From Gemmatimonadota bacterium (GTDB taxonomy: Bacteria; JBHIER01; G020348925): DNA of 64,000 bases. Positions 1 to 53,783 of this stretch are shown here, one piece after another. Location of the stretch: contig CP070758.1 in the NCBI GenBank assembly GCA_020348925.1, forward strand, positions 1,770,030 through 1,834,029, given 5' to 3'. Both the position numbers and the translations under genes were made by a program. The notes under the pieces were generated by a model. The model was not told the origin of the DNA, made no database searches, and saw nothing but the letters and a program-made list of their open reading frames with translations. The first letter of the stretch is position 1. Each line of letters begins with the position of its first letter.

Positions 1-76
1 CATTGCGAGCTTCGATGACTGAAGTCACTTTTTAGAAATGATATCGTAAAAATTTGAACCTGTCATTGCGAGCCCC
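1..76 (+). repeat. Two direct copies of (tgt)cattgcgagc, 63 bp apart. The second copy is followed by a cccgg-ccttctc-ccggg hairpin. A reverse-complement copy lies at 7027..7040.
   Basis: cattgcgagc at 1-10 (truncated by the window edge) and tgtcattgcgagc at 61-73. ctcgcaatgaca at 7028-7039 is the reverse complement. The motif is related to the TGTCATTSC repeat termini elsewhere in the window. Confidence 0.4.
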
Positions 77-14302: not shown

Positions 14303-14634
14303 ATCGAACTGAAACAATTTAAAGAGTTGAAAACACATACGTCCTTTTTTCTCAATCATAGTAACCCTGAAAAATAGCCTTTTATACCGTCTTAACGCAA
14401 GGAAATTCTTGCGTTCCAGGAAAAAAGAATACCGTAGAGATCTCGTATTGAATCTTGGCACATGCATCACGTTGAAGCGAACCGGAAACTTCTCCATAAA
14501 AAAACCTTGCACATCTTTTCAAAAAAAATTAAGTTATGTAAAATCATGGGGAGGGGGTTGAAACCATCCCACACCCCCGATGAGTGGACTTTCGGTGGAA
14601 ATTTGGACGTTTACAGAGAAAGCAGGAGAGCCCA

Positions 14635-28093: not shown

Positions 28094-29049
28094 GAAAAGC
28101 GAAAAAAAAGTGAGCAGGCTATAGCCGCTTGAGAGGGACAAAGTAAGAGGAGAAAGGAAGGATAGTATGGGTAGGCTTAATTATCGTTTTGTCAATCAAC
28201 CCCGGCTAGTCACCTGCTCATTTTTTCACTTTTCATGTACGCTATAAATTATCTTCTTAAGTTTCAGCAACCTCCTTGTTACCTTGGAAATCCGGATGAT
28301 GTGACTCTATGGGTAGTATTTATTTTTCTTGTTGACACAATATATAGAGTAATTTGTATTTGTCAAGGTAAAAATGATATTTTTTTTCGAGGTGTAAAAA
28401 CGAACAGCATATTTGTCCGTCGCTTTCAGATCCCCAACAAGGTCTCCGTTGTGGCCTCTCTTCAACCTCGTAATCTTTTGCCGGGCATCCTCCAGGAACG
28501 AAAATCATCCGTTTGATGTCGCCGCTTCAAACCCAACCGGTAACACCGGTTGAAAATGTGCGTCACACCTTTTCATTCTTTCGGAGAATCCAGTTATTCT
28601 TAAGTTATTGTATTCAAAGCATATGTGCCGCTCAGCGGCTCGTCAGGGTGCAACAGCGCTTGCACCGAAAGGGGCCCGGGACTGAGAGTCTGGGAACCGA
28701 TTTTCATCTTTCCGGTCAGCTTCCGGCCGGTTTTTTCCGCAGCGACCTCTCGGCCGATCGAAAGCCTTCTCATTCTGATAGGGATCGTCTTGGCCGTTCC
28801 AGTGCCGATCCTGTGGCAGATCGTGTCCAGGACGAACGGCCCCTGGTTCCGGTCGAGATTTTAAACCATATGAAACGAACTGGTGAACTTTGGGGGGCTC
28901 AATTCTTCATTGTTGCGGACAGGGCCTTTCGGCAACTCCCCGGCCCCACGCCACACCGAGAAGCGAGAGATTTCCAACCTAAGTTTCGCACTTACGGCTC
29001 CACCGCCTGAATCCCAACCTCCACGGGGATCAGAGAAGAGACACAACCG

Positions 29050-30138
29050 CTACAATATGAAGGTGATCCCGACCGCGTAATGTCCTTCCCTCTCTTCTCT
29101 AACAGCCTTCGACCACCTCGAAGTTCGGAAATTATATCCACCCACAATGCTTAAGGTACTTATCACATGGCCGACACTGACACCGACGAATATATCGTCG
29201 AAAAGATCTTCCGATAGTCTCGTTCCCGTAACGAGACTGAAAGATATTTGCCTCCAGAATTCTATCTTTGAACGGTTCAGACGAGGCTTCGGCCGTTGGG
29301 GTCTCATTATGTAAAGGTGTCCAAGTATGAAGGGTTCGACCGATGTTTTGTTGACGCTATCTTGTCTGGCCGTCTCGCCGGAAAGAAAAGTCCCCATCAA
29401 GCCAATACTCGAGGTGACCCATGAGCTGCTATAGTTGCCAAATGTAGCCTGAGGTTCGATTTTTGAGTCGACTTCTTCCAATCGGATTCTGTTTATGGTA
29501 TTTTCTGCCAGAGGCAGTTTCGTTCGCCCGTGATAGAGGCGGGCGGAAGCATCGGTCTTTTCTCCAATCGGTATCATGTGAAGAACCGCTTGTGTATCAG
29601 GCGGGCATCTTGCCATCATCCTCTCCCCCACAGTCCGCCCTAAAACAGCCCCGACGATCATTTTCACTGCGGTGAAAAGCGCAAATTCGCCGGATCCAAC
29701 CCTCCGATCAAGGGACGACATCTTAATAACAGGCTTGTTACTGCTCTTTGATACGGAGTCTATGGTTGAGCTGTCCTCGGCCACAAACACCAGCACATAT
29801 ATGAAGCGTTCACCAAAGAGTTCATCCCTGCGTTTATCACCCTTGAGCAAATCGATCCGGACCGGCGTCTCCTCCGACGCAGTTTTTCCTCTTCTATCGA
29901 CGAATATGACAAGGTCCGGCAGTTCGTCATCATACACCTCGCCATAAAAGGCCTGGGGCAGATGTTCAAGTTGGCCCCGCGACAAGGAATCCAGCAGGGC
30001 GTCGATCTTCCCCGACTCGAATTTGACTCTGGCGGCACCTCGAATCATTTTATGAGAACTGCAGGACAGGCTCATCGTAAGGACACACGAAAATGCCAGT
30101 GCAAGCATAACCGGTAAATGTGGCGAACAGGATTTCAT
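29050..30138 (-). CDS. Hypothetical lipoprotein/secreted protein (362 aa).
   Basis: Signal peptide with lipobox-like MKSCSPHLPVMLALAFSCVLTMSLSC. No recognisable catalytic motif. The C-terminus ends ...GITFIL. Confidence 0.4.
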   Translation of the reverse strand: MKSCSPHLPVMLALAFSCVLTMSLSCSSHKMIRGAARVKFESGKIDALLDSLSRGQLEHLPQAFYGEVYDDELPDLVIFVDRRGKTASEETPVRIDLLKGDKRRDELFGERFIYVLVFVAEDSSTIDSVSKSSNKPVIKMSSLDRRVGSGEFALFTAVKMIVGAVLGRTVGERMMARCPPDTQAVLHMIPIGEKTDASARLYHGRTKLPLAENTINRIRLEEVDSKIEPQATFGNYSSSWVTSSIGLMGTFLSGETARQDSVNKTSVEPFILGHLYIMRPQRPKPRLNRSKIEFWRQISFSLVTGTRLSEDLFDDIFVGVSVGHVISTLSIVGGYNFRTSRWSKAVREEREGHYAVGITFIL

Positions 30139-30308: not shown

Positions 30309-31388
30309 CTACGATACCTCTCCATGATGGATTTCCCCACCTCCCTCAGGTTCCACCTCGAACGCTCTGGTCTGCAATTCCCCATAAGCGAGGAAGAGCT
30401 CGCGGTACCACAATCGGAAGAACTTCAGATAACAAAAAAACATCAGGATACTGACCAGCACACATGCAAGGCCCAAAAATACGAGATTGGAACAGCAAAG
30501 AACGATGACTCCAGCGAGAATGAAACTCAGAGACATATTTCGACTGAAGCCGTAAAGGTTCAGAAACGTGTTGAGCTGTTCCCTCACCCATTTCTCCTTT
30601 TTGACCTTACTGTAAGCATGCAGGTACATTGCACGACTTATATTTTCAGTCTCCCTATTTATCTCACCGAAAATCTTTGGCTCTCCCCACGGCAACCAAC
30701 CCTCTGCGATCCAACGCTCCTCAATAATCTTATCCTTGGCCAACGCATCCAGAATATGCCTCCTCAGGGGCTCAACGAGAGGTTCCCAGTAGTGTTCGAA
30801 AATGAAATTGAACGATCTCATCAAGAATCCCTTCTTGGGTCTGCTCCAGAACAGGTTGATGCTGGGGGATCGCAACCACTTTTTTGTCACCATTCGCTCC
30901 AAAAGCCAGGCTGATAGAATAGCCAGAATGTGACCTAAGACGTAAGCGACTCCCACCCATAGTACGAAAAAGACAAACCCGATATCTTTTCGAAACAGGA
31001 AGTGTTTGGGCTGAGCTTCGAGAAAAAGGAGATTCGTATGCAGGGCGCGTTGCATATCGAGGTTGTTCTTCAAAGCTTCTAACAGCTGAGAGGTATTTGT
31101 AGTGTCACTTTTCAGCAGGGTTTCTTGAAGTTTAAAATTGTTTTCCAACACCCGTGTCAGCTGCGAGTAGTTTCGCCACGCTTGCGCTGGGAGGGAGGCA
31201 CTTTCCGACTTTTGTTGCACCTCCGGAGTATCTGAGGTGTGCTGCAACTGCGGGATGTGGTAGAAACGTTCCTGAAGGAATTTGCCTGTTACCGGCCAGA
31301 ACCCCAAGATGACCAGTATCAGAAAACCCGGTGCAAGATATCCGAAAAAGTCATACACTGAAAACGGGATATCTTTCATAATGCGCAC
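30309..31388 (-). CDS. Hypothetical integral membrane protein (359 aa).
   Basis: N-terminal TM (GYLAPGFLILVILGFWPV), central TMs (FVFFVLWVGVAYVLGHILAILSAWLL) and C-terminal TMs (LSFILAGVIVLCCSNLVFLGLACVLVSILMFFCYL). No recognised family. Confidence 0.4.
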   Translation of the reverse strand: MRIMKDIPFSVYDFFGYLAPGFLILVILGFWPVTGKFLQERFYHIPQLQHTSDTPEVQQKSESASLPAQAWRNYSQLTRVLENNFKLQETLLKSDTTNTSQLLEALKNNLDMQRALHTNLLFLEAQPKHFLFRKDIGFVFFVLWVGVAYVLGHILAILSAWLLERMVTKKWLRSPSINLFWSRPKKGFLMRSFNFIFEHYWEPLVEPLRRHILDALAKDKIIEERWIAEGWLPWGEPKIFGEINRETENISRAMYLHAYSKVKKEKWVREQLNTFLNLYGFSRNMSLSFILAGVIVLCCSNLVFLGLACVLVSILMFFCYLKFFRLWYRELFLAYGELQTRAFEVEPEGGGEIHHGEVS

Positions 31389-34615: not shown

Positions 34616-35496
34616 AGCCGCTTTTCCGGGATAGAGCGAGGCAGCTTCGCAAAAGAGTCCGTAAAGAGTTTGAGTTCTATGTTCTCTCTGAGTTGTTATT
34701 TGTATCCTCCTGTTTTTAAGATCGCCCTGGGATTCCTGGCCCTGAGTGAAACTCTATGGGACCTCTGCCCCGATGAAGAACTTCGTTTAGCTTGTAAATC
34801 TCATAACACTTTCGTCGTCAACGAGCCGATTGCTAAAACGGCTCGACTCGGCAGCGTTTCCTGGGAATCTTTCGCTTTTATGGGCCGTGAAGCCCGTGGA
34901 TTATGCGCGGTACCACTTCAAAGGAATTGCTGGAAGTCTTTTAAGTGTTTGGGTTTTTGGGTCCACAATGATTCCAACAGAGTCAAGGGCAATAACCCCT
35001 GATATGGGCTCGACATCATCAGGGCCGAAGATGATTCTGCCTGCAGTGATATCATCCATGAACTCCAAAACGCAGGCCCAAATTCCAATTCTCTCGGAGT
35101 TCCTTCAGTCGGTTCATAGGTAGTTTTACCTACAGGCATAATCCCTGTTTTCTTGAGCTCCTTTGCGGGAGCGAGACAATCGGACTCCCGGTATAAACCG
35201 AGAAATCTGCCTCACACTTTCCTGGTGAGTCGACTTTGCCCTGACCGTAACCGTAACATACCTCAATCCCATCGTAATCCCTCCCTTACGTATATTAGAT
35301 CCAGACTCGATATTAATAACTTAATACGTGAAAAATCATCCCATTGCACTTTTCCTAACAAATGCAGCACAAACTGTTCTTCACAACAGCGTAATTTTTG
35401 CATGCTAAGTAAAGTCCGTTTTATTATATGTGCAGAGCGCAATAATAATAGTGGGTCGAAATGATTTTGCCAACTCATTTCCAACCTGGTTTATTC

Positions 35497-35608
35497 ATGA
35501 GCTGTCATTCCGGCTGGAATGCCGGAATCTCCTCGATTGATGCACCGGGTTCTCTATTCAGGAGATTCCGGGATAAACCCGGCATGACAGAGTATACAAT
35601 TGCGGGAG
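35497..35608. repeat. Roughly 110-bp nested palindromic element with TGTCAT termini, similar to a REP/MITE-like repeat family.
   Basis: Left arm: ctgtcattccggctggaatgccggaatctcc. Right arm reverse-complement: ctgtcatgccgggtttatcccggaatctcc. Inner perfect 11-bp inverted repeat: ccggaatctcc/ggagattccgg. Each arm also contains its own hairpin (attccggc-tggaat-gccggaat). It lies in a 1.1 kb non-coding gap. Confidence 0.5.
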
Positions 35609-35717
35609 ATACTACCGAACAAAGCTCAACACCAGTATTCATTATAATTCCATAAATATATTCGTGTTACGTTGCGTTTGCAGTGGTTTTTTAAAATTAT
35701 CCAGGCTAAATCCCAAA

Positions 35718-36104
35718 TCATGCCATCGCCACACACTCGATCTCAATTTCGACGTCCTTGGGCAGTCGGGCGACCTGGACGGCGGAGCGGGCGGGTGGGT
35801 TCTTCCCAAAATATTGATCATAGACCTCATTCATGGCGGCAAAGTCGTCCATGTCTTTCAAAAAGACCGTCACCTTCACCACTTTGTCGAGACTCGATCC
35901 CCCGGCCTCAAGGAGGGCCTTGAGGTTCTCCAAAACCCGCCTCGCCTGTACCTGAATATCACCGGAAACAAGCTCTCCTGTCTCAGGATCCATCGGAATC
36001 TGACCGGCCGTAAACAACAATTCACCGCTGCCTACCTTGACAGCCTGACTGTACGGCCCAATCGCCGCCGGGGCCTTGTCGGTTTGGATGACCTTTTTTG
36101 ACAT
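35718..36104 (-). CDS. ridA: RidA (YjgF/TdcF) family reactive enamine/imine deaminase.
   Basis: 128 aa. [49 protein letters not shown] are the RidA signature. Confidence 0.85.
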
Positions 36105-40393: not shown

Positions 40394-41581
40394 ATGGACA
40401 CCTTCTATTTCGATTTTCGCGACGTATTCCGAGCGGCCAGAATCGGACTCAGTGGCAAGAAGATGTGGACCCTGTTCCTCTCTCTGGCCCTGGCCCATTT
40501 CGTGTATCTCGTCTTAGGATATCTCGCCTTGCTGGCCAGCGGATTCTCCCTTCAGACCATCTGGGGTTCCTACGGATTGTTTCCGGTAGCCGTCGTTGAC
40601 CAATTTGCCTGGTACAGCTGGCTTCTCTTCGGGGCCGCAATCATTCTCTGTATCATCATCTTTTTATTCGCCAGTGCGATAGTTGCCAGAATCACGTTCC
40701 AGCAATTGAAAGGTGACGAGCTGTGCGCCTTCAGCGAAGCCTACAGGTTCTCCAAGAGGCACTGGAAAGCCGTCGTCGTTACACCGTTCAGTTACATCGT
40801 GATTGTCGCTTTTATCGTCTTGTGCGGACTCATTCTCGGACTTGTGGCCCGAATCCCATACGTGGGCGAATTGGGATTCTCGATCTTTCTCGTCCCTATT
40901 GTTTTTGTCGCCATCTTCATCGTATTCATGGCGGTGGTTGCGGTATTCTCCTTCATCCTGAGTCCGGCCATTGTGGCCACAGCTGGTGAGGATACAATGG
41001 AGACCGGCATTCAGAATTTCTCCATCGTGTGGAGTCAAACCTGGCGTTTGGTTGTTTATGAGGCTATTCTGAAAGCGACGACGGCCGTGGGTTTCTATGT
41101 TCTCAGTCTCATCACCTTCATAGCCTTGGTGCTCACCTACTGGGTTTGTGGTCTCTTTATGGGCCCGAAAATGGCCCACATTGCCAGCAAAGCCCTCGGC
41201 TATCTCCCGGCATCGTGCCCCTTCTTTGAGAACTTCACCCAATACTTTTGGATACCAAGTCTTTCTCCTTGGCTGCCCACCCTCCCCATTCCCGGGAAAA
41301 TGGGAATCACGGGAGAAATCTCCGCCATTATCTGCGGAGTCTCTCTCGTCCTTGTTATGTGGGGGGTTGTCTCCTATTCCTGGTCAACATTAACTGCGGG
41401 CCAAGCGATCATTTACCTCATACTCAGAAAAAAGAAGGACGACGAAAACCTGCTGGATCGAGAGGAAGAAGAGGAAGACAAGAGCATAAACCTCGAAGGG
41501 AGCGAAGCAAGACCTGGGGAAAATGAGGAGGGAGGCGGGTTGTCGGAGACGGGATCTCTTCAAGTAAACGAGAACACATAG
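40394..41581 (+). CDS. Hypothetical polytopic membrane protein with an acidic C-terminal tail.
   Basis: About 8 hydrophobic helices. The C-terminus DREEEEEDKSINLEGSEARPGENEEGGG is acidic low-complexity. No family recognised. Confidence 0.45.
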   Translation: MDTFYFDFRDVFRAARIGLSGKKMWTLFLSLALAHFVYLVLGYLALLASGFSLQTIWGSYGLFPVAVVDQFAWYSWLLFGAAIILCIIIFLFASAIVARITFQQLKGDELCAFSEAYRFSKRHWKAVVVTPFSYIVIVAFIVLCGLILGLVARIPYVGELGFSIFLVPIVFVAIFIVFMAVVAVFSFILSPAIVATAGEDTMETGIQNFSIVWSQTWRLVVYEAILKATTAVGFYVLSLITFIALVLTYWVCGLFMGPKMAHIASKALGYLPASCPFFENFTQYFWIPSLSPWLPTLPIPGKMGITGEISAIICGVSLVLVMWGVVSYSWSTLTAGQAIIYLILRKKKDDENLLDREEEEEDKSINLEGSEARPGENEEGGGLSETGSLQVNENT

Positions 41582-41995: not shown

Positions 41996-43801
41996 ATGGA
42001 TTGGAACACACAGAATATCCGTAATTTTTGCATCATCGCTCATATTGACCACGGCAAATCGACCCTGGCCGATCGGTTGTTGGAGTTCACAGGCACCGTC
42101 TCGGCTGCGGATATGATCAATCAGGTTCTGGATGACATGGATTTGGAGCGGGAGCGGGGCATTACGATCAAATCCCATCCCATTCGGATGGATTACACAT
42201 CGAAAGGCGGCGGCACGTATATCCTCAACCTTATCGACACCCCCGGGCACGTCGATTTTTCCTACGAAGTTTCAAGGAGCCTGGCGGCCTGCGAAGGAGC
42301 CTTATTGGTCGTCGATGCCGCCCAGGGTATTGAAGCACAGACGATCAGCAACCTCTTTCTGGCTCTTGAAAACAATTTGACCGTCATCCCCGTCATTAAT
42401 AAGATCGATCTGAAGAACGCCCAGATCGATGTTGTCACCCGACAGATTTCGGAACTCACAGGTGCTTCGGAGAAGGAGATCCTGTTGGTCAGTGCCAAAG
42501 AAGGTTCCGGCACGGAAGAAGTATTGGAGGCGATTGTAGACCGCATTGCACCTCCCTCTCTGCACCCCGACAATCCCAGTCGAGCCCTCATCTTCGACTC
42601 TCAGTTCGATCAATATCGCGGTGCCGTCCCCTACATTCGGGTTTTTGACGGGATCTTCAAACAAGGGATGCGGATACAACTGTGCTCCAGCGGTAAGGAA
42701 TTTGAGGTGGACGAGGTCGGCATCTTTCGGTTGAATCGCATCAAACGAACGAGCCTTTCAGCCGGCGAGGTCGGGTACCTTGTGGCCAACATTAAAAAGG
42801 TTTCAGACACAAAGGTCGGCGACACGATCGCCGCTGCTCATGGGCCAACGATCGCTCCTCTGCCGGGCTACAAGGAGGTCAAACCGATGGTCTTCAGCGG
42901 CCTCTATCCAACGAACAGCGATGATTATGAGGAACTGGGATACGCCCTGGAGCGTTTGAAACTCAACGATGCCTCATTGAGTTATGAACCGGAATCCTCC
43001 GCAGCGCTTGGATTCGGGTTTCGCTGTGGATTTCTCGGTCTGCTCCACATGGAAATCATTCAGGAGCGTCTGGACCGAGAGTACGGCCTGGACATCATCA
43101 CCACGGTGCCCAATGTCAAGTATCGGCTCCTGTTGACCACTGGGGAACGGATCTTCGTCGAAAATCCAGCCGCTATGCCGGAGGTACGCCTCATCGAGGC
43201 CATTGAGGAGCCCTATATCAAGGCTCATATTATTGCTCCGGCCGATTATGTCGGGACGGTTATGAAACTTATGAAGGAACGAAGGAGTCTCTTTAAGACG
43301 ATGGACTATCTCGATCGGACCAAGGTCGATCTCCACTACGAACTGCCCTTTTCCGAGATCGTCTTTGACTTTTACGATAGACTGAAGTCTGTGAGCCGCG
43401 GATACGCCTCTTTTGACTACGACTATATCGATTACAGACCATCGAGCCTGGTAAAATTGGAGATTTTACTCAACAACGTGCCGGTGGATGCACTCTCATC
43501 CATTGTCCACAAGGATCGAGCCTACGAGTGGGGGCGAGAACTCTGCCAGCGATTGCGCACCATCATCCCCAGGCAGCTCATTCAAGTGGTTATTCAGGCG
43601 GCCATCGGCAGCCGTATCATCGCCCGGGAATCGATCGCTCCGCTGAAAAAAAATGTGACGGCAAAATGCTACGGCGGCGACATCACCCGCAAGAGAAAAT
43701 TGCTCGAACGGCAGAAGGAAGGGAAAAAACGCATGAAACAGGTGGGAAAAGTCGAAATCCCCCAGGAAGCTTTTCTGGCTATCCTGAAAGCGGAAAGATG
43801 A
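41996..43801 (+). CDS. lepA: Elongation factor 4 (LepA).
   Basis: [22 protein letters not shown] (G1), [13 protein letters not shown], and the LepA-specific C-terminal domain ...[22 protein letters not shown]. Confidence 0.95.
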
Positions 43802-43857
43802 AGGGATACCACGTCCCCTGTTCTCGCTCAAATGACTTTGGAGAGGAGGAACTCAAA

Positions 43858-44685
43858 GTGACGCGCAAAAAACAGAAAAAGAGAAAATCAATCATTCGTG
43901 AATATATGGAATCCATCGTCGTGGCCGTCTTTTTGGTCATGTTCATCATCCGCCCGTTTGTTGTTCAGGCATTTCGTATTCCCTCGGGTTCAATGGAGGA
44001 TGCGCTCTTGGTGGGGGATTTTCTCTTGGTCAACAAGTTCATCTACGGAGCGAAGAGTATTGACAGAATTCCCCTCACAAAGATCGATATTCCATATTTC
44101 ACCCTGCCCGCTTTGACCGATCCGAAACCGGGAGACATCATTGTCTTCCGGGCACCGCACGAACCTGATAAGGACTTCATTAAACGGTGTATCGCCGTTC
44201 CAGGCCAGACGCTTGAGATCAAAGACAAAATTGTGTATATCGACGGCAAAAAAATGGAAAATCCACCGAAGGCGAAGCACATCACGAATTATTCCATCCC
44301 CAAGGCGGCCGGTCTTCGTGACAACTTCGGCCCAGCCCGGGTACCGACCGAAGGGGATACCCTCCGTTTCGCCAACTTAAACGAATACGAATATGAGTTA
44401 TTGAGGATGTATCTCGAATACAAGGGAGAGGCCCTGGCAACAAAGGGAAACGGATTTACGTTGAATGGCCGGAGTGCAAACTTTTACATTATGGACGAGG
44501 ATTGCTATTTTATGATGGGCGACAACAGAGACAACAGTCGTGACAGTCGCTTCTGGGGTTGGCTTCCCAGAAAAGACATTCGAGGAAAGGCCCTCATCCT
44601 CTACTGGTCCTGGAACAGCGAGCCACCTCTCTACGACATCTTTCACAAGGTTCGATGGGGTCGCATCGGATGGCTCATCAAGTGA
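43858..44685 (+). CDS. lepB: Signal peptidase I (LepB).
   Basis: A GTG start preceded by the strong RBS ggagaggagg. Basic N-terminus plus TM (RKKQKKRKSIIREYMESIVVAVFLVMFII). Catalytic Ser box IPSGSMEDAL. GDNRDNSRDSRFWGWLP (box E). The six-frame ORF extends upstream to 43528, but that part overlaps the lepA 3' end. Confidence 0.8.
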   Translation: MTRKKQKKRKSIIREYMESIVVAVFLVMFIIRPFVVQAFRIPSGSMEDALLVGDFLLVNKFIYGAKSIDRIPLTKIDIPYFTLPALTDPKPGDIIVFRAPHEPDKDFIKRCIAVPGQTLEIKDKIVYIDGKKMENPPKAKHITNYSIPKAAGLRDNFGPARVPTEGDTLRFANLNEYEYELLRMYLEYKGEALATKGNGFTLNGRSANFYIMDEDCYFMMGDNRDNSRDSRFWGWLPRKDIRGKALILYWSWNSEPPLYDIFHKVRWGRIGWLIK

Positions 44686-45537: not shown

Positions 45538-45937
45538 TCCAGGTTTCCCCTTTTACCACCACCCCTCCACCATTAAACACCTTGACAGTGAGTCTGGGAT
45601 GTCATATCTTTTGTTCCAAAGAATAGCGGAGAAGGGGTCGAGCCGGATGGACAGGGACCCCGTGAACGGTTGGACACGGAGGAGAATTTATATCGCAGAT
45701 CGATTCCTCCGTCAATTTTTTTAGGAGCATGATAACAACTGAAAGATGATGGGAGCGAGCAGAGCCATAGGTAACCTGAAAAAGGATCACACTCAATCTC
45801 GGACCGTGAGATTGCCTGGGCAAAAAAATACCGAAAAGACTCTTTTTTTGACTTAAGTCAAGGTGTTCCAAAATGTTCTTATATATTTTCAAATTTCCAA
45901 TATGAAGTGCACGGACGATACACATAAAGGGCACGAT

Positions 45938-48691
45938 ATGTTTTTCAGACTCATTCTTCTTTTTGTAAGTACTGCTATGTTTTGGCCAGTTCTGGTGCAC
46001 GGCCAGGAGATTCTCAAGCAATTGCAGGCGCCGGGCTCTGAACCGAGGGGCTTGACCTGGGACGGCCACTCCCTGTGGTGTGCTGATGCCTCGGCACAAA
46101 GGGTCTATCAAATCGATCCTGACGACGGTCAGATCATCTCCTCATTCGACTACTCTATGGACTTCCAGTACGGAGGGCTGGGCTGGAGCCCCGAGGGATA
46201 TCTTTGGATCACAGATTACCGGGAGAGTCAAAGCTGGTTCGACAAGGTCCACCCGACATCGGGCAGCGTGATCTCCTCGTTCCACTGCCCAGGCGGGTGA
46301 ACCGCTCGAGGTGCAGGGGTGGCCAGTCTGGCCATCGACACTCTCTGGTACTCCGACAGGAGGCAAAAATATATCGGTAAAACGACCACATCAGGGTATT
46401 TGGTCGAAAACATTGAAACGTTCGACTCATTGATTCGCGACATAGCCTGGGACGGGACCCATATCTGGGCCATATCACTCGAGGGAACGATCAAGAAATT
46501 CAGCACCTCAGGCGATCTGATCGAGACATACGCCGGGCTCCTCAGCGGCGGATGGGGGCTGACCTATGATGGTGCCTATGTGTGGGCCTCCGATCCGGGA
46601 ACGAACAAAATTTACAAACTTCTCTTCCCGGGCTTGGGCGACAAAACACCACCTTCCGCTCCCGCGCTCACATCCGACACGCACCCATCCCAGGACGACT
46701 GGTACAGGCAGGACAGTCCCACCCTCAACTGGACCCCCCCTGCAGATCCCTCGGGCATAAGCGGATACAGTTACGCAGTGAACCACGAATCCACATTTTC
46801 TCCGGATACAACCAGTGAGGGTTGGCTGACAACCGCCACGTACAGCGACCTGACTGACGGCACATGGTATTTCCACTGCCGGGCCAGAGACGGCGTAGGC
46901 AATTGGAGCACGGCGAATCATTACCGTATCAGAATCGACACACAAGCCCCTGCCCCCCCCATCAACCCCACCGTTTTTCCCAGCGGATGGACCAACGACA
47001 GTATTTTCCAAGTCCACTGGACTAATCCTCCCGACAGTTCGGCCATAGCCGGTGTCTATTACAAGATCGGACCACCTCCTGAACACGGGGAAGATGGGAC
47101 GTTTTCTTCGACGATACCTCTATTTCTCGCAGCCCCGGCTGAAGGCGAAAACGCTGTGCATCTCTGGCTCGAAGACGGCGCAGGGAACAAGGACGAGGCC
47201 TCTCGCGCCGATGCCGTTCTCCCGTATGATGCCACCGGACCTCAGGAGGGGACTATTTTAATAAACGCCGGCGCTGAAGCTACAGTATCAACCACGGTCA
47301 CTTTAGCCAATCTAAACGCTGTTGATGCCTTGAGCGGCATGGAACCAGGGGCACAGATGCGGTTCAGCAACGACGGTACGACCTGGTCTCCGGCCGAAGA
47401 CTATACGAGCCTCAAGACCAACTGGGATCTCTCCTCGTATGGGGGGACGAGTCAACCGGGACCCAAGACGGTCTCCGTCATATACCGCGATGCCGCCGGC
47501 AACTGGTCAGATCCCTTCAGCGACGACATTCTTCTCTCTGAACCCCTGGCTATTGTCACCGATTCCCTGCCCGGAGGTGCTGTGGGCTTTGCCTACGAGG
47601 AGACTTTGGTTGCAACAGGAGGGGTACCGCCTTATAGCTGGAGCATATCCTCCGGAGCGCTTCCCAACAATCTGACGCTCACTCCCGACGGCACAATCAC
47701 CGGTGTGCCTGATGAAGCCGGTCCTTCGAATTTTATCGTCGAGGCGATCGACCCCTATTCGAGTTCTCAGTTCCGAGCTTACACAATCACCATATTCATC
47801 GGGGCAACCAAAGGGGACATAAACGGCGACTCCGAGGTCGATCTTCGCGATATACTCCCTGTTGTCGGATATATTCTGGGACGAAGCGGGTTGACGCAGT
47901 CGCAGCTCTGGTCGGCTGATGCCTTTCCTGACGGATCAATCGACCTGTCCGACCTGGTGGCTTTAGCCCATCTCATCGTCGGGCAATCGTCCGGAGCCGC
48001 GAGGGTCTCATATTCTGGGGGAGGTCCATCCGTTCTCCGGGCCTCACACACATATGATGCTCCATCATCAACCGTGACTCTGTTCCTCGACAACGGAGTA
48101 CCTGTCGGTGGCCTTCAACTCGAGGTACGATTACCCCGGGACGCAACGCTTCGCAAGCCCCCTCAAGTCACCGACCGATGCGGATCTTTCACCGTGGACT
48201 ATACCAAGAATCACGACGATCTCACCGTCCTGACGTACACCCTCAACGGAGACGCGATCTTACCCGGGTCAGGACCCCTCTTGATGCTGTCTTTATCCTG
48301 CCCGGAAGATACGAAGGAACAGAACGCCATAATAGAAAAAGCATTTCTGGTCGGTGTCAGGGGCGAACCGCTCCCTCTCGACATTCGGACAGAATCTGTA
48401 GTGACTGCCCCCGTGGCACACGGTTTGGCACGCAACTATCCCAATCCTTTCAATCCTGAGACGTCCATCAGTTTTTCACTTCCTGCTGAGAACACCGTTT
48501 CCGTAATCATCTATGATGCTTTGGGCCGCAGGGTGAGAACAATCGCCGAGGAGACATTGAAGGCCGGAGTTCACACCATGCTTTGGGACGGACGTGATGA
48601 AGGCGGCCACGCATCGCCGAGCGGAGTCTATTATTGCAGAATTGACGGGGGAGATGTCGTTCACACACTAAAGTTGGCCCTCATCAGATAA
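45938..48691 (+). CDS. Secreted beta-propeller / PPxAP-module / putative-Ig / dockerin / cohesin-like protein ending in a T9SS C-terminal sorting domain. It is interrupted by one in-frame TGA at 46298-46300, presumed recoded (selenocysteine?).
   Basis: Signal peptide MFFRLILLFVSTAMFWPVLVHGQ. The ORFs 45863..46300 and 46319..48691 share a frame and are separated only by a TGA after ...FHCPGG. The second ORF has no signal peptide yet ends in a T9SS CTD (NYPNPFNPETSISFSLP...SGVYYCRI). Propeller-blade repeats: GLTWDGHSLWCAD...VYQID, IAWDGTHIWAIS...IKKF, GLTYDGAYVWASD...IYKL. Dockerin: GDINGDSEVDLRDILPVVGYIL...DGSIDLSDLVALAHLIVG. Confidence 0.6.
46298..46334 (+). promoter_or_regulatory. In-frame UGA with a downstream hairpin (tggccaGTCtggcca, 46320-46334). 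Candidate bacterial SECIS-like recoding element.
   Basis: The TGA at 46298-46300 is followed 19 nt later by a 6-bp perfect stem with a GUC loop. The E. coli fdhF SECIS apical loop is (A)GGUC(U). A homologous position in the paralog 48881..51319 has the same arrangement. Confidence 0.5.
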
Positions 48692-48880
48692 TATTTCCGT
48701 AGCAATGACATCATTTCCGCTTTAAATTGGAATATTTTACAGGACCCTTTCGGGATCGTGCGGAAGTTCCAAAAGGTCACTCCCGGTTTGGGGGAAAACG
48801 GTCTTCTCCTCAAAAGAGGAATAATCCCGAACCCCACGCTTCGGGCGGTGCGAACCAAGTTCGAAAGAGAGAGGTGGCTT

Positions 48881-51319
48881 ATGAAACAATGGCAACGGTT
48901 GCTTTCGGTTTTTCTTGTATCACTCCTACCGGTCGCCGGATTCGCTCAACGCATTGTCAAAGAGTTTGATACTCCGGGTCCTGAGCCGAGGGGCTTGACC
49001 TGGGACGGAACATATCTCTGGTGCGCTGATGCCGAAGAGGATTCCATATTCAAGATCGATCCTGAGTCAGGTCAAGTTATTCACTCTTTCTATTTCAGCA
49101 TGACTTTTGAATTTTCCAGAGGAGGAGGAATAGCGTGGAGCGGCGACGGTGCCCTGTGGGCCACCCGTAGTACCTATTTTTATAAACTTGACGCGAACAC
49201 CGGTCAGAGCATAACAAACTTTCACTGTCCTGGGGGCTGAAGCGTCCGACCGGCGGGCGTGACCCGCCAAGGGAGTTACCTCTGGTATTACGATCAAACA
49301 TCCAATTACGTTGGGAAAACGACCACCGGAGGGAGTCTTCTGGCCAATTTCATCCCGAGCGACAACACTCTCCGAGACCTTTGTTGGGACGGCACCCATC
49401 TCTGGACCATGAACATCTCAGGCGAGATAAAGAAATATACCACATCCGGAGTTCTCGAAGAAACCGTTACCGATCTTCTCCCAAGAGGATGGGGCATAAC
49501 GTTCGACGGCTCACATCTGTGGGCCTCGGATCCTCAAACCGATAAGATCTATCAAATAGCACTCTCCGATGACTCAGATCCCCCCGGAGCGCCGCTGATC
49601 CAAAGCGCAACGCATTCCTTCGATTCAGCCTGGTACAGCGATCCCGATCCGGTTTTCACCCTCACGCAACCTGAAGATCCTTCGGGTATCGCCGGATACA
49701 GCTATCTCCTGGATGAACACGCTGAGACCGTCCCTGACAATTCTGTCGACGGAACAGGAACGACGGTCGCCTATGTATCCATCCAGGATGGAAAATGGTA
49801 TTTCCACTGTCGGGCTCAGGATGGGGCCGGGAATTGGGGCGAGACAAATCACTACAGAATTCAGATCGATACGACACCTCCGGCAGGTGGCACCATCCTC
49901 ATCGAGGATGACGCCGACACGACGAAATCCTTAGTGGTAACCTTGGGCAATCTCCAAGCCGAAGATACTCTCTCGGGAATGGGTTCCGGTGCAGCCATGA
50001 AATTCAGCAACTACGGATCCGTCTGGTCAGACGAAGAGCCTTTCAGGGACACCCGCACGGGCTGGGATCTCTCACAATATGGCGGAAATGATTCCTCGGG
50101 TCTGAAAAGGGTCTTCGTCTCTTTCCGAGATGTGGCCGGGAACTGGTCCCAGCCCCTCTTCGATGAGATCATCTACAGCGCACCTCTTGTCGTTGAAACA
50201 GAATCGCTGAGTGCAGGTACCCTGGGTTTCGCTTATGCCGAAACGCTTTTCGCCTCAGGCGGTTGGCCACCCTATGAGTGGGAGATTGGTGGGGGTGCAT
50301 TACCTCCTGACCTGGAACTCGATACTACTGGCATCATATCAGGGAAACCGGATTCGGCCGGAACATTCACTTTTACGGTGACTGTAACTGACGCCAACAT
50401 GTCCGCAACAATGAAGGATTATACAATCACCATTCACATTGAGGCCGAAAAGGGAGACGTGAACGGCGACGCGGATGTCAATATTCTTGATATCATCGCC
50501 GTTGTTCGATATATCCTCGGATTGGAGGAGTTTACCCCTCTTCAAATATGGGCGGCTGACGTCATAACCGACGGCGCCATCGATGTAACGGACATCCTGG
50601 GCATCGTCAACCTCATCCTCGAATCGCCTGGTGGAGGACGGTTGATGCTCTCACAGGGGCAGGCCCTCATCGGCCTCGAAGAAGACACACGCTTTCCCAA
50701 TGCCCACAATACCACAGCTGTTACCTTGAAGAGTCAAATACCTGTGGCTGGAATCCAGCTGAACATAAGGCTGGCTTCAGGTTCAAAGCTAACACGCCCG
50801 CCTCAATTGACACAGTGGAGTCAAACTTTTCAATGCAGCTATAAAATCAACGAGAATAATGTCTTACTTCTGTTGTACAGCCTGTCACACGAGATCATTT
50901 CACTGCCCTATCCTGTTCCAATTGTGAATCTCCGTATCCCTGAGGATGCCTACCCCGTATACATTGAAAGTGTCATCGTCGCTGACAAAAACGGCCAGCC
51001 AATCACCGTCGGCAACGATCCTGAAAAGCTGAGCTCTGCCCGGCAGGGGACGGACGTTCAAAGCCATCCGAATCCCTTTAATACGGAAACGTTCCTGTCG
51101 TTCACCCTTGAAAAGAGAGAATACGTCACACTGTCTGTCTACAATGTCCTGGGTCAAATGGTCAGAACACTCGTGAGCGGGGAGTGTGATCCGGGCGAAC
51201 ATGTGGTGAGCTGGGACGGCACGGACTGGACCGGCAATACACTTCCCAGCGGAGTCTATTTCAGCCGAATAGAAGTGGGAAATATCGGAACCGTTAGGGA
51301 GATGCTCCTTTTGAAGTGA
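48881..51319 (+). CDS. Paralog of 45938..48691 with the same domain order (beta-propeller, PPxAP module, putative Ig, dockerin, cohesin-like, T9SS CTD). It is interrupted by an in-frame TGA at 49238-49240, presumed recoded.
   Basis: RBS gagaggtgg upstream. Signal peptide MKQWQRLLSVFLVSLLPVAGFAQ. The ORFs 48758..49240 and 49259..51319 share a frame and are split only by a TGA after ...FHCPGG. Dockerin: GDVNGDADVNILDIIAVVRYIL...DGAIDVTDILGIVNLIL. T9SS CTD: HPNPFNTETFLSFTL...YNVLGQMVRTLV...SGVYFSRI. Confidence 0.6.
49238..49268 (+). promoter_or_regulatory. In-frame UGA with a downstream hairpin (ggcgggCGUGAcccgcc, 49252-49268). Candidate SECIS-like recoding element.
   Basis: The TGA at 49238-40 is followed 11 nt later by a 6-bp GC stem with a CGUGA loop (a GU dinucleotide in the apical loop). 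It is positionally equivalent to the hairpin at 46320-46334, although the sequences differ. Confidence 0.5.
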
Positions 51320-51344: not shown

Positions 51345-51376
51345 AGACGAAAGCCACCCAGGTCCGATCTTGGGTG
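51345..51376. terminator. Rho-independent terminator between the convergent genes 48881..51319 (+) and 51417..52112 (-).
   Basis: gccaccca-ggtccgatct-tgggtggc stem (8 bp GC-rich) followed by TTTTTT on the + strand. It is A-rich on the 5' side, so it may also function for the minus-strand gene. Confidence 0.6.
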
Positions 51377-51416
51377 GCTTTTTTAAAATGATTAAATATA
51401 CGGCAATGAATTCTTC

Positions 51417-52112: not shown

Positions 52113-53468
52113 TTCAAAAACCTCGCGAAAAAAACCGCTACTCCTAAGGTGAAAAATACCGATGTCTGCTCATTATGCTCACTGCGAAACGAACGAGCCT
52201 CTGAGCAAACTCTCTCTGAATAAATTGTAAAACTGAAACTCTGCAAACCCGCATCAGCGCTGTTGGCAGCACCGCGACCCCACATCACCTAAAGCAACTC
52301 CAAATATAATGCAAAAAATTGTAAAATGCAAACTACAAATTTAAGAGCGGTTGATTTTCAGCGAACGCCCGAAGGACTCCGGTGATGTTCCGGTTTCTCA
52401 ATGTTCTGAAGCCCGAGCCCAAAGACCGTCAGGCGAACGGGACCCTTCGATGACGTTTCTGGTGAGCGGAGCCTGGCCGGAGCTTACCGAAATGTTGAAT
52501 TGTTCGTGACAGGCTCTTATTTTCCGCCCTCCGAATCCCCGCAAAACCGTGGATGAGTTCAAAAAGAGAGCGCAGGGGGACGGACGACGATCCCGGCGAA
52601 GGCTGGGGCTGTTTTCCCTTTTTGCTTCGAATACATTTCGGAAATTCCCAAAATTTTCGAAATGTATATCAGGTGGTTTGGAGAAAAGGATCGCTTCCCT
52701 CCGGGAGGCGGCAGGATTTCGATGTGAGCTGGCGGAGCAGCGAATGCACCATATCCTGAAATCTTTCGGGACCGGAAGTGTTGAGCGATGCGAATACTTC
52801 TTCAATGACGGTAAAAAAGGAAGAGCACAACATCTTTCCCCTTAGAAGCAAGAAGTGAACGAAGGTCAAAACCGGCCTCTTTCCACTCCTGACACCATGC
52901 CTTCACTTCGTGCATTCCGAGCATCTCACCGACGAGAGGAAACAGATCGCTCACAACTTCCTGCCACGAAACATGTCTCTATTATTGACCAGGAGTCTCA
53001 CCTGACAGAGAGCAGGCCGGGTGAAAGCGCGGGGCGAACGTCCTCACGCGCTGAGGAGGATGCCTGTGAAGGGAGGAGCATCTCGTGAATCAAAGTGAGA
53101 AACAGAAACCGACAAGTGCAATTGAGGCAGGTCGTAAAGGGAAGGGGAGCCAATTATAACCAGATCCGTATAAAGAAACGAAAGTCCGGCTCGACGGGAT
53201 TTCGCCCTCCAAAAAGTGATCGGGACTTGTAGATTTTGGCTGGGAGAAAGGGGTTGGGATCCGAGATTCCTCACCATTTTTATACATGACGACCAAAATC
53301 TTTGCGAATGGAACGGTTGTGCATGACTCCCTTGTGTTATCTCCCCATATCAAGAGAGGACTGGGGGGTTGGAAACCGTTCACAGCAAATCTCGGTACAT
53401 CTGCGCAATTCCTTGTGACGGTCCGTGAAGCATCCATACGGGATTTTGGGAGCGAGGTACGATTACGC

Positions 53469-53783
53469 TCACTCCACCTTGACTGCAGTGCCGTATACCA
53501 GTATCTCCGAAGCGCCGGACATGACCATGGATGTGGTTATCCGGATACACACAACGGCATTCGCCCCCAGGTCTTCGGCCTCCTCGACCAGGCGATCGAG
53601 CGCCTGCTCCCGAGACTCGGCCATCATCTTCGTATAGTCGGAAATCTCTCCGCCGACAATACCGCGCAAACCGGCCACGATATCCCTGCCCACATGTCTG
53701 GCCCGGATAGTATTGCCCTTCACCAATCCATAATGCTTCACTATCTTCTTGCCCGGAATATCGCTTGATGTTGACAACAGCAT
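53469..53783 (-). CDS. ybjQ: YbjQ/UPF0145 (DUF74) family protein.
   Basis: MLLSTSSDIPGKKIVKHYGLVKGNTIRARHVGRDIVAGLRGIVGGEI...ANAVVCIRIT...ILVYGTAVKV matches the YbjQ fold pattern. It starts 2 nt after the anti-sigma gene stop. Confidence 0.7.
   Translation of the reverse strand: MLLSTSSDIPGKKIVKHYGLVKGNTIRARHVGRDIVAGLRGIVGGEISDYTKMMAESREQALDRLVEEAEDLGANAVVCIRITTSMVMSGASEILVYGTAVKVE

What the first reader, a model, noticed from the sequence alone, without database searches (positions are those of the whole stretch)
49200..49275. Second copy of the UGA + hairpin recoding signature (paralog 2)
The TGA at 49238-40 splits ORFs 48758..49240 and 49259..51319, which share a frame. The flanking peptide is NFHCPGG | SVRPAGV. 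The hairpin ggcggg-cgtga-cccgcc starts 11 nt after the TGA.

The codon position is conserved, while the hairpin sequence is not. That pattern is expected for a structure under selection rather than for repeated DNA.
Basis: seen in the sequence. Interest (0 to 1): 0.8.

Follow-up and report, generated by a model that had tools for sequence, protein, structure and literature searches.

The report
Secreted propeller protein with predicted selenocysteine
The in-frame TGA at 49238-49240 is most likely a selenocysteine codon, read with the help of a small RNA hairpin just downstream, in a secreted five-bladed propeller protein whose family is absent from current selenoprotein catalogues.

Summary
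TGA 49238-40 joins two same-frame ORFs into one 812-codon gene (48881-51319). A 17-nt hairpin, ggcggg-CGUGA-cccgcc, starts 11 nt after it.

The gene encodes a signal peptide, a five-bladed beta-propeller that spans the TGA, Ig-like domains, a dockerin and a T9SS sorting tail. The upstream paralogue (45938-48691) has the same FHCPGG-TGA junction with a different hairpin.

I collected 19 distinct homologous junctions from MAGs and metagenomes, down to 42% protein identity. All keep TGA at this codon, keep the frame open on both sides and keep a hairpin there. 17 of 19 pass strict bacterial SECIS criteria, against 1 of 63 non-TGA homologues and 3.3% of TGA triplets in the window.

Synonymous sites inside the stem are frozen. 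The outer pair switches G-C/C-G/U-G. In one subgroup the hairpin sits 7 nt further downstream although the proteins are collinear.

TGA is also the ordinary stop of 12 of 27 window genes, so the genetic code is standard.

No Cys-containing homologue was found, and no catalogued selenoprotein family matches. The Sec machinery could not be checked because it is outside the window.

Verdict: a probable new selenoprotein family that uses the known mechanism.

The parts
48881..51319 (+). Complete gene 'paralogue 2': 812 codons including one in-frame TGA, ending at stop TGA 51317-19. GenBank splits it into UCE20051.1 (119 aa) and UCE20052.1 (686 aa).
   Evidence: ATG 48881 is preceded by GAGAGAGGTGG. 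The translation is continuous apart from the single TGA.
48881..48946 (+). Signal peptide MKQWQRLLSVFLVSLLPVAGFA. The mature N-terminus is Gln23, which is invariant in the homologues.
   Evidence: Read directly from the sequence. Q23 is an invariant column in alignment A1. The cleavage site is inferred, not predicted by a tool.
48947..49570 (+). Five-bladed beta-propeller domain that spans the TGA. The Sec codon falls in blade 3.
   Evidence: The Pfam Vgb_lyase/DUF6923 match covers residues 39-226, across the stop. The AlphaFold2 model has pLDDT 93 and pTM 0.89 with 20 strands. The best whole-fold matches are plant/bacterial glutaminyl cyclases at TM 0.76-0.78.
49223..49237 (+). Codons for His-Cys-Pro-Gly-Gly directly before the TGA. 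The Cys codon is 49226-49228, which gives a C-x3-U motif.
   Evidence: F, C and the first G are invariant in all 19 junctions. H is present in 18 of 19.
49238..49240 (+). In-frame UGA, the predicted selenocysteine codon (residue 120 of the precursor).
   Evidence: It is TGA in all 19 homologous junctions. The frame is under purifying selection on both sides.
49252..49268 (+). Predicted bacterial SECIS hairpin: stem 49252-57 / 49263-68, loop CGUGA at 49258-62. It starts 11 nt after the UGA, leaving 17 nt between the UGA and the loop.
   Evidence: Hairpin energy is -11.1 to -12.6 kcal/mol. It meets all four constraints of the consensus bSECIS model quoted in PMC13188914.
50450..50617 (+). Dockerin type I domain.
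   Evidence: Pfam PF00404, residues 524-579, 38.8 bits against a cutoff of 22.9.
51068..51316 (+). T9SS type A C-terminal sorting domain.
   Evidence: TIGR04183, 27.4 bits against a cutoff of 23. Pfam Por_Secre_tail and FlgD_ig also hit.
51350..51384 (+). Terminator-like hairpin followed by a T-run after the gene (AAAGCCACCCAGG...TGGGTGGCTTTTTT).
   Evidence: Read from the sequence. The simple terminator scan did not list it.
45938..48691 (+). Tandem paralogue 1 with the same architecture and the same FHCPGG-TGA junction.
   Evidence: The tandem pair is also conserved in loci L055 and L057.
46298..46300 (+). In-frame UGA of paralogue 1.
46318..46336 (+). Hairpin of paralogue 1: 8-bp stem, loop GUC, 25 nt between the UGA and the loop.
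   Evidence: It is conserved in 5 type-1 sequences and occupies the same columns as the type-3 hairpin.

Best explanation
The gene at 48881-51319, and its tandem paralogue at 45938-48691, most likely encode a selenoprotein.

**Proposed mechanism.**
1. The ribosome reaches UGA 49238-40.
2. The 17-nt hairpin at 49252-68 lies just outside the mRNA channel and acts as a bacterial SECIS element.
3. SelB-GTP-Sec-tRNA(Sec) binds the GU-containing apical loop and delivers selenocysteine to the A site, in competition with release factor 2.
4. Translation then continues to the real stop at 51317-19.

**Product.** The full-length protein has a signal peptide at one end and a T9SS sorting tail at the other. 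It is therefore exported and displayed or released at the cell surface. Its N-terminal five-bladed propeller carries a His-Cys-Pro-Gly-Gly-Sec loop between blades 2 and 3. By the usual propeller convention this D-to-A loop lies on the face commonly used for ligand binding. I infer that it forms a redox-active Cys/Sec pair or a metal-binding site.

**Shown here:** the conserved UGA, coding continuity across it, the conserved hairpin with SECIS geometry, and the domain architecture.

**Inferred:** that the inserted residue is Sec, that SelB reads the hairpin, and what the protein does.
For: 1. **TGA conservation.** TGA sits at the same codon in 19 distinct sequences from independent MAGs and metagenomes, at 42-84% protein identity. 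Window genes end in TGA, TAA and TAG at 12:10:5, so a genuine stop codon would be expected to drift.
2. **One polypeptide.** The propeller domain spans the TGA.
3. **Coding across the stop.** pN/pS is 0.26 in the five codons between the TGA and the GTG, the same as in the flanks. The Arg codon there varies CGA/CGG/CGC/CGT/AGA.
4. **SECIS geometry.** The hairpin has a 6-bp stem, a 5-nt loop with G at position 2 followed by U, 17 nt spacing and -11 kcal/mol. This meets every constraint of the consensus bSECIS model (PMC13188914).
5. **Enrichment.** 17 of 19 TGA junctions pass strict criteria. The comparison figures are 3.3% of window TGA triplets and 1 of 63 non-TGA homologues at the aligned site.
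6. **Base-pair support.** 98.5% and 95.8% of cells are paired. The outer pair is G-C in 5 sequences, C-G in 4 and U-G in 1. One stem change is G-C to G-U.
7. **Synonymous sites.** Third positions of GCG GGC GTG ACC are invariant in 11 sequences, whereas almost all flanking conserved-residue codons vary.
8. **Hairpin shift.** The hairpin is 7 nt further downstream in types 1 and 3. The type-3 and type-2 proteins are collinear, and the same CGUGA loop is read in a different frame.
9. **Nearby Cys.** An invariant Cys lies four residues upstream of the UGA.
10. **Export logic.** Only the read-through product has both the signal peptide and the T9SS tail.
Against: - No selA, selB, selD or tRNA-Sec lies in the 64-kb window. 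The rest of the genome could not be read, so Sec capacity of this organism is unverified.
- No Cys-containing homologue was found. By one paper's account almost all selenoproteins have such homologues (PMC12013277).
- Covariation rests on one pair per hairpin type among related sequences. Four of the six pairs never vary.
- Single-sequence folding energy is not significant.
- No Rfam family matches.
- There is no experimental evidence.
Confidence: 0.85

Rival explanations
1. Selenium-independent programmed read-through. The hairpin slows or remodels termination so that a near-cognate tRNA (Trp, Cys or Arg) reads UGA. This would yield a mixture of a 119-aa precursor fragment and the full-length protein.
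For: The Sec machinery is unverified for this genome. No Cys homologue was found. A conserved UGA, a conserved hairpin and coding continuity would be expected under this model too.
Against: The hairpin geometry and its G[U/G] loop match the SelB-dependent consensus specifically. An invariant Cys four residues upstream fits a Cys/Sec pair. From my own knowledge, hairpin-stimulated UGA read-through is not an established bacterial mechanism.
Confidence: 0.07
2. A genuinely split gene. TGA terminates a small secreted 96-residue N-fragment, and the rest is translated separately from the GTG at 49259, as currently annotated in GenBank.
For: Gene callers and GenBank annotate two ORFs. A GTG lies 18 nt after the TGA in type-1 and type-2 sequences.
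Against: - The five codons between the TGA and the GTG are under the same purifying selection as the flanks.
- There is no AGGAGG-like site before the GTG.
- In type-3 sequences and in L062 that codon is CTG or TTG.
- The fragments would be two incomplete halves of one five-bladed propeller.
- The C-fragment would lack a signal peptide yet carry a T9SS tail.
- The stop is always TGA.
Confidence: 0.04
3. A pseudogene or a sequencing or assembly error that created a premature stop.
For: None beyond the presence of an in-frame stop.
Against: The same TGA occurs in 19 distinct sequences from different assemblies and in both tandem paralogues. The ORFs are intact and pN/pS is about 0.28 on both sides.
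Confidence: 0.01
4. An altered genetic code in which TGA is a sense codon (code 4 or 25).
For: None.
Against: TGA terminates 12 of 27 Pfam-supported genes in the window, including this gene itself. Only two TGAs in the window join long open frames.
Confidence: 0.01

Closest known systems
Bacterial selenoprotein genes with a coding-region SECIS (prototype E. coli fdhF; consensus bSECIS model of Zhang and Gladyshev as summarised in PMC13188914)
   Same: An in-frame UGA is followed directly by a stem-loop. The loop is small with G then U or G at its start. 16-37 nt separate the UGA from the loop. The hairpin energy is at or below -7.5 kcal/mol. The 17-nt hairpin starting 11 nt after the UGA matches, from my own recollection of Liu et al. 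1998 (not checked here), the minimal E. coli SECIS geometry. About 11 nt of mRNA is occluded by the ribosome (PMC4513850).
   Different: The host protein family and the hairpin sequence are different. No bulged U is evident. No Cys-containing homologues were found. The Sec machinery of the host was not verified.
Cell-envelope selenoproteins in the 2026 catalogue: TonB-dependent receptor of FCYXU motif type, multiheme cytochrome ExtKL, GSU2204-family outer-membrane protein
   Same: These are predicted selenoproteins located outside the cytoplasm. The TonB receptor type also has a Cys close upstream of Sec, preceded by an aromatic residue.
   Different: The folds are different (beta-barrel or cytochrome, against a five-bladed propeller). 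The motif is CxxU there and CxxxU here. Export here uses a T9SS sorting tail plus a dockerin.
Plant/bacterial-type glutaminyl cyclases (five-bladed propellers; PDB 2IWA, 2FAW, 3MBR, 3NOL, 3NOK)
   Same: They are the best whole-domain structural matches to the model, with TM 0.75-0.78 normalised to the query.
   Different: Sequence identity is only 11-19%. Neither window protein matched Pfam PF05096. A weak profile hit to the PDB chains gave E 0.08-0.7. These enzymes are not catalogued selenoproteins. Whether they carry an HCPGGU-like loop was not examined. A shared fold does not imply a shared activity.
Non-selenoprotein DUF6923 / Vgb-lyase-like propeller proteins, many with T9SS tails (e.g. 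P0013, P0016, loci L068-L139)
   Same: They belong to the same large repeat family (11,203 representatives at E <= 1e-3). They share the blade motif FxxPGxxPxGLxWDGxYLW and often the same C-terminal sorting tail.
   Different: They lack the three-residue insertion that carries Cys and the TGA. They also lack the downstream hairpin (1 of 63).

Membership tests
Bacterial selenoprotein gene (UGA-Sec plus bSECIS) | In-frame UGA conserved at the same codon among homologues | tested here: met
   19 of 19 distinct junctions carry TGA, at 42-84% protein identity.
Bacterial selenoprotein gene (UGA-Sec plus bSECIS) | The reading frame is conserved and under purifying selection on both sides of the UGA | tested here: met
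   pN/pS is 0.26-0.29 upstream, between the TGA and the GTG, and downstream. The propeller domain spans the stop.
Bacterial selenoprotein gene (UGA-Sec plus bSECIS) | A downstream stem-loop meets the consensus bSECIS model: loop 3-9 nt, stem 4-16 bp, G in the first two loop positions, 16-37 nt from the UGA to the loop, MFE <= -7.5 kcal/mol | tested here: met
   The criteria come from PMC13188914. Paralogue 2 has a 5-nt loop CGUGA, 6 bp, 17 nt spacing and -11.1 kcal/mol. Paralogue 1 has a 3-nt loop GUC, 8 bp, 25 nt spacing and -11.2 kcal/mol. 17 of 19 homologues pass a stricter no-bulge version.
Bacterial selenoprotein gene (UGA-Sec plus bSECIS) | The hairpin is maintained by selection on RNA structure (covariation, or conservation beyond what the protein requires) | tested here: met
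   There is one pair with compensatory changes in each hairpin type, and 96-98% of cells are paired against 15-46% when slid. Synonymous sites in the stem are frozen. The hairpin position shifts by 7 nt between collinear proteins. The hairpin is absent from non-TGA homologues. Covariation alone is thin, because 4 of 6 pairs are invariant.
Bacterial selenoprotein gene (UGA-Sec plus bSECIS) | Homologues carry Cys at the Sec position (usual, not obligatory) | tested here: not met
   None was found among 54 genome loci, the 80 best metagenome loci, or the listed hits of the protein searches. More distant relatives lack the whole insertion. The searches were not exhaustive.
Bacterial selenoprotein gene (UGA-Sec plus bSECIS) | selA, selB, selD and tRNA-Sec are present in the same genome | not testable with these tools
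   None lies in the 64-kb window. The remaining roughly 4.97 Mb of the contig could not be fetched.
Bacterial selenoprotein gene (UGA-Sec plus bSECIS) | Selenium is demonstrated in the polypeptide | not testable with these tools
   This needs 75Se labelling or mass spectrometry.
Any of the 119 catalogued prokaryotic selenoprotein families, or an NCBIfam selenoprotein model | Match to a listed family, domain or Sec motif | tested here: not met
   Table 1 of PMC13188914 lists no propeller, DUF6923 or CxxxU 'HCPGGU' family. The NCBIfam release 20 scan returned only T9SS, FlgD-Ig and Vgb-like partial hits.
T9SS type A cargo protein | An N-terminal Sec-type signal peptide plus a C-terminal sorting domain above the curated cutoff | tested here: met
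   TIGR04183 scores 27.4 bits (paralogue 2) and 34.2 bits (paralogue 1) against a cutoff of 23. The signal peptide was read from the sequence. Both features are on one chain only if the TGA is read through.
Plant/bacterial glutaminyl cyclase (Pfam PF05096) | Sequence-profile match above the family threshold | tested here: not met
   There was no PF05096 hit at E <= 0.01. PDB profile hits gave E 0.08-0.7. Only the fold is similar.

The most novel reading that the evidence does not exclude
The lineage might lack the selenocysteine machinery. The conserved UGA-plus-hairpin would then be a selenium-independent, structure-programmed read-through or termination switch. It would set the ratio of a small secreted N-fragment to the full-length surface protein. 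That would be a bacterial recoding mechanism without precedent. A milder and more likely novelty is that Sec is inserted and forms a new His-Cys-x3-Sec site on an extracellular propeller with no Cys-containing counterpart in nature.
Probability: 0.07. Interest if true: 0.85.

Novelty: new member of a known kind. Interest (0 to 1): 0.55.

Why it matters
If confirmed, this adds a selenoprotein family of an unusual type.

- It is a T9SS-exported, dockerin-bearing five-bladed propeller, not a cytoplasmic thioredoxin-fold oxidoreductase.
- It apparently exists only in the Sec form.
- It is duplicated in tandem.
- The homologues found come from metagenome assemblies and MAGs; I did not check the habitats of those samples.

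Selenium chemistry would then be placed on the outside of the cell. The family would also give a clean natural example of a SECIS hairpin that moved 7 nt within a collinear coding sequence.

In practical terms, GenBank annotates each gene as two unrelated ORFs (UCE20050-52), and gene callers split the homologous loci in the same way. The family is therefore easy to miss in surveys that start from annotated proteins or rely on Cys/Sec pairing.

Tried and rejected
- **Genetic-code change.** Rejected, because TGA ends 12 of 27 window genes.
- **Pseudogene or assembly error.** Rejected on conservation across 19 sequences.
- **Other selenoprotein candidates in the window.** None found. No other TGA joins two open frames of at least 70 codons and has a hairpin.
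- **Rfam.** No hit at gathering thresholds. Permissive local scans gave only chance-level hits, for example SECIS_3 at E = 5.7 on paralogue 1.
- **Single-sequence folding significance.** Weak, z -0.8 to -2.3, so I relied on comparative tests instead.
- **Cys homologues by protein search.**
  - The word-indexed search retrieved few candidates. It even missed the C-terminal fragment UCE20052.1, which is in the collection. Its negative result therefore carries little weight.
  - The exhaustive profile search was dominated by multi-blade repeat proteins among its top 150. It added only two more N-fragments, P0085 and P0150.
- **Structure prediction.**
  - An X-substituted window sequence was accepted.
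- **Sec machinery in the host genome.** I found no way to reach the rest of the contig. I ran no further search on it, because its candidate retrieval is limited to close relatives of the query.
- **Literature.** No paper links selenocysteine with T9SS cargo or propellers. A search on Gemmatimonadota and Sec gave nothing informative. The BSepDB supplements are not held.
Full report
**1. The observation**

The sequence is as described.
- TGA lies at 49238-49240, between ORFs 48758..49240 and 49259..51319. Their starts are 501 nt apart, so they share a frame.
- Translation from the ATG at 48881, which follows a GAGAGAGGTGG ribosome-binding-like site, gives one 812-codon reading frame. It is interrupted only by this TGA and reads ...NFHCPGG*SVRPAGV....
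- The hairpin GGCGGG-CGTGA-CCCGCC occupies 49252-49268, and exactly 11 nt separate it from the TGA.
- The gene directly upstream (45938-48691) is a paralogue with SSFHCPGG*TARGAGV. Its TGA is at 46298-46300. Its hairpin is different, ggtggcca-GTC-tggccatc at 46318-46336.

**2. What the gene encodes**

Both paralogues have the same layout:
- a signal peptide;
- an N-terminal beta-propeller, seen as partial Pfam Vgb_lyase/DUF6923 hits that run across the TGA;
- Ig-like domains (Big_13, He_PIG);
- a dockerin;
- a T9SS type A sorting tail (TIGR04183 above its cutoff).

An AlphaFold2 model of the propeller, with X at the TGA position, is confident: pLDDT 93, pTM 0.89, 20 strands in five blades. Its best whole-domain matches in the PDB are the five-bladed plant/bacterial glutaminyl cyclases, at TM 0.76-0.78 and 11-19% identity. 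There is no significant sequence match to that family.

The motif Cys94-Pro-Gly-Gly-Sec98 (mature numbering) lies in the loop between the last strand of blade 2 (residues 88-93) and the first strand of blade 3 (residues 102-108). By the general propeller convention, which is my own knowledge, D-to-A loops lie on the face usually used for ligand binding.

**3. The code is standard and the TGA is not an accident**

- TGA is the ordinary stop of 12 of 27 Pfam-supported genes in the window, including this gene.
- Only these two TGAs join long open frames.
- The window comes from a 5.04-Mb contig that GenBank labels a Gemmatimonadota MAG. There the pieces are annotated separately as UCE20050.1, UCE20051.1 (JSV84_06830) and UCE20052.1.

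**4. Homologues**

- A protein search returned ten N-terminal fragments from other assemblies. All end in ...FHCPG[GS].
- I fetched their DNA, and scanned GTDB representative genomes and JGI metagenomes. This gave 19 distinct junction sequences.
- Every one has TGA directly after F[HS]C[PA]G[GSAW], with the frame open on both sides. Propeller identity to the window protein goes down to 42%.
- Two further cluster representatives end the same way: P0150, and P0085 with FHCYGG.
- The tandem pair and its neighbours (SIR2 deacetylase upstream, PAS/HTH regulator downstream) recur in L055, and the tandem pair also recurs in L057.
- Homologues at or below 39% identity lack the three-residue insertion that carries Cys and the TGA. 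They show the ordinary blade motif PGxxPxGLxWDG.
- No sequence with Cys, or any sense codon, at this position was found. The protein searches were not exhaustive.

**5. Translation continues through the TGA**

- Among ten type-2 sequences, pN/pS is 0.29 in the 30 codons upstream. It is 0.26 in the five codons between the TGA and the GTG that gene callers use as a start, and 0.28-0.29 further downstream.
- The invariant Arg in that five-codon gap uses CGA, CGG, CGC, CGT and AGA.
- The GTG is not preceded by an AGGAGG-like site. In other subgroups it is replaced by CTG or TTG.
- Only the read-through product carries both a signal peptide and a T9SS tail.

**6. The hairpin**

*Chance level.* Alone, the hairpin is unremarkable for GC-rich sequence, with z -1.2 to -2.3. 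In context it is not. With strict criteria (contiguous stem of at least 5 bp, loop 3-9 nt, G in the first two loop positions, 16-37 nt from the UGA to the loop, energy at or below -7.5 kcal/mol), the pass rates are:

| Set | Pass |
|---|---|
| All 2468 TGA triplets in the window | 3.3% (1.0% at or below -10 kcal/mol) |
| The two window junctions | both, at about -11 kcal/mol |
| The 19 TGA junctions | 17 of 19 |
| Non-TGA homologues at the aligned site | 1 of 63, and marginally |

The two junctions that fail keep the same helix, one with a G-U pair (L063) and one with an A-C mismatch (L065). These criteria are the consensus bSECIS model as quoted in the 2026 review PMC13188914.

*Three hairpin types exist.*

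| Type | Sequences | Stem (nt after the UGA) | Loop |
|---|---|---|---|
| 2 | 11, including this gene | +12..17 / +23..28 | CGUGA |
| 1 | 5, including paralogue 1 | +19..24 / +30..35 | GUC or GUU; the two sequences with G in place of the closing A (L055, L064) score best with a 5-nt GGUCU loop |
| 3 | L063, L065, L067 | +19..24 / +30..35 | CGUGA or CGGGA |

*Base-pair support.*
- In type 2, 98.5% of cells are paired, against 35-44% when the partners are slid. The outer pair is G-C (5), C-G (4), U-G (1) and one A-C mismatch. One inner pair becomes G-U.
- In types 1 and 3, 95.8% of cells are paired, against 15-46% when slid. One pair switches between G-U and C-G.
- Covariation is therefore real but thin. 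Four of six pairs never vary, and the sequences are related.

*Synonymous sites.* The fourfold-degenerate codons GCG GGC GTG ACC in the stem and loop are invariant at their third positions in all 11 type-2 sequences. The following CGC changes once, to CGU, which keeps a G-U pair. Among ten flanking codons with conserved residues, nine vary. My hand-computed one-sided Fisher test on 4/5 against 1/10 gives about 0.017.

*Position shift.* Type-2 and type-3 proteins are collinear between Sec and the LW motif, yet the hairpin is shifted by 7 nt. The same CGUGA loop is read in a different frame. This is hard to explain by protein constraint.

**7. Mechanism**

The most economical reading is canonical bacterial Sec insertion. 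SelB-GTP-Sec-tRNA(Sec) binds the apical G-U of the hairpin as it emerges from the ribosome. It then decodes the UGA in competition with RF2.

The 11-nt spacer equals the length of mRNA occluded by the ribosome (PMC4513850). From my own recollection of Liu et al. 1998, which I did not check here, a 17-nt upper stem-loop 11 nt from the UGA is the minimal E. coli SECIS.

In E. coli recoding runs at about 30-40% and depends on selenium supply (PMC4513850, abstract). A truncated N-fragment is therefore a likely by-product or regulatory outcome.

I infer, and have not shown, that the invariant Cys four residues upstream and the nearly invariant His form a redox or metal site with Sec.

**8. What is missing**

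- No selA, selB, selD or tRNA-Sec lies in the window, and I could not reach the rest of the genome.
- The absence of Cys homologues is atypical (PMC12013277).
- There is no experimental evidence.

These gaps leave about 7% for Se-independent read-through and about 4% for a truly split gene.

**9. Comparison with known families**

- The 2026 catalogue of 119 prokaryotic selenoprotein families contains no propeller, DUF6923 or T9SS family and no HCPGGU motif.
- NCBIfam release 20 has no matching selenoprotein model.
- No paper links selenocysteine with T9SS cargo.
- The mechanism is known. The protein family is, on this evidence, new.

**10. Verdict**

This is a probable new selenoprotein family (confidence 0.85), of moderate interest. 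Its unusual points are its extracellular location, its non-thioredoxin fold, its apparently obligate Sec form and the migrating SECIS hairpin.

Noticed in passing
window 48944-48949 (codons Ala22-Gln23); alignment A1 column Q23: The residue right after the predicted signal-peptide cleavage site is Gln in all 11 aligned homologues. From my own knowledge this recalls the Bacteroidetes 'Q-rule', in which exported proteins carry an N-terminal pyroglutamate. It is curious for a protein whose own fold resembles a glutaminyl cyclase.
   Followed up: no
window 5812-6825, 11246-14512, 14584-16836, 18701-20761: The window holds several other predicted secreted proteins with dockerin or T9SS tails: a metallo-beta-lactamase-fold protein plus dockerin, an M28 peptidase plus Ig domains plus dockerin, a papain-like C1 peptidase plus dockerin, and a 686-aa protein with a Por_Secre_tail. 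Dockerins combined with T9SS tails suggest an unusual surface-display system in this lineage.
   Followed up: no
window 34616-35717: About 1.1 kb between an acyl-CoA-synthetase-like gene and a RidA-like ORF (35718-36104, minus strand) has no convincing ORF and no Rfam hit.
   Followed up: no
window 45863-51319; GenBank proteins UCE20050.1-UCE20052.1: GenBank annotates the C-terminal parts as separate proteins and the N-terminal fragment of paralogue 2 as a 119-aa hypothetical protein. JGI named an identical-length fragment 'outer membrane protein assembly factor BamB'.
   Followed up: yes
L065/L066 (junction at L065:3283) and P0085: Motif variants exist. L065/L066 have FSCPGG-TGA (His replaced by Ser), together with the only hairpin that carries an internal A-C mismatch. 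P0085 ends in FHCYGG (Pro replaced by Tyr). His and Pro are therefore not strictly required.
   Followed up: partly
window 43528-43801: The longest ORF for the signal peptidase I gene (43528-44685) overlaps the end of lepA (41996-43801) by about 270 nt. The Pfam match starts at residue 124, so the true lepB start is probably further downstream.
   Followed up: no
window 40394-41578, 29053-30138, 30312-31388, 28513-29007, 53286-53765: Five sizeable ORFs (160-395 aa) have no Pfam match at E <= 0.001. They were not examined further.
   Followed up: no
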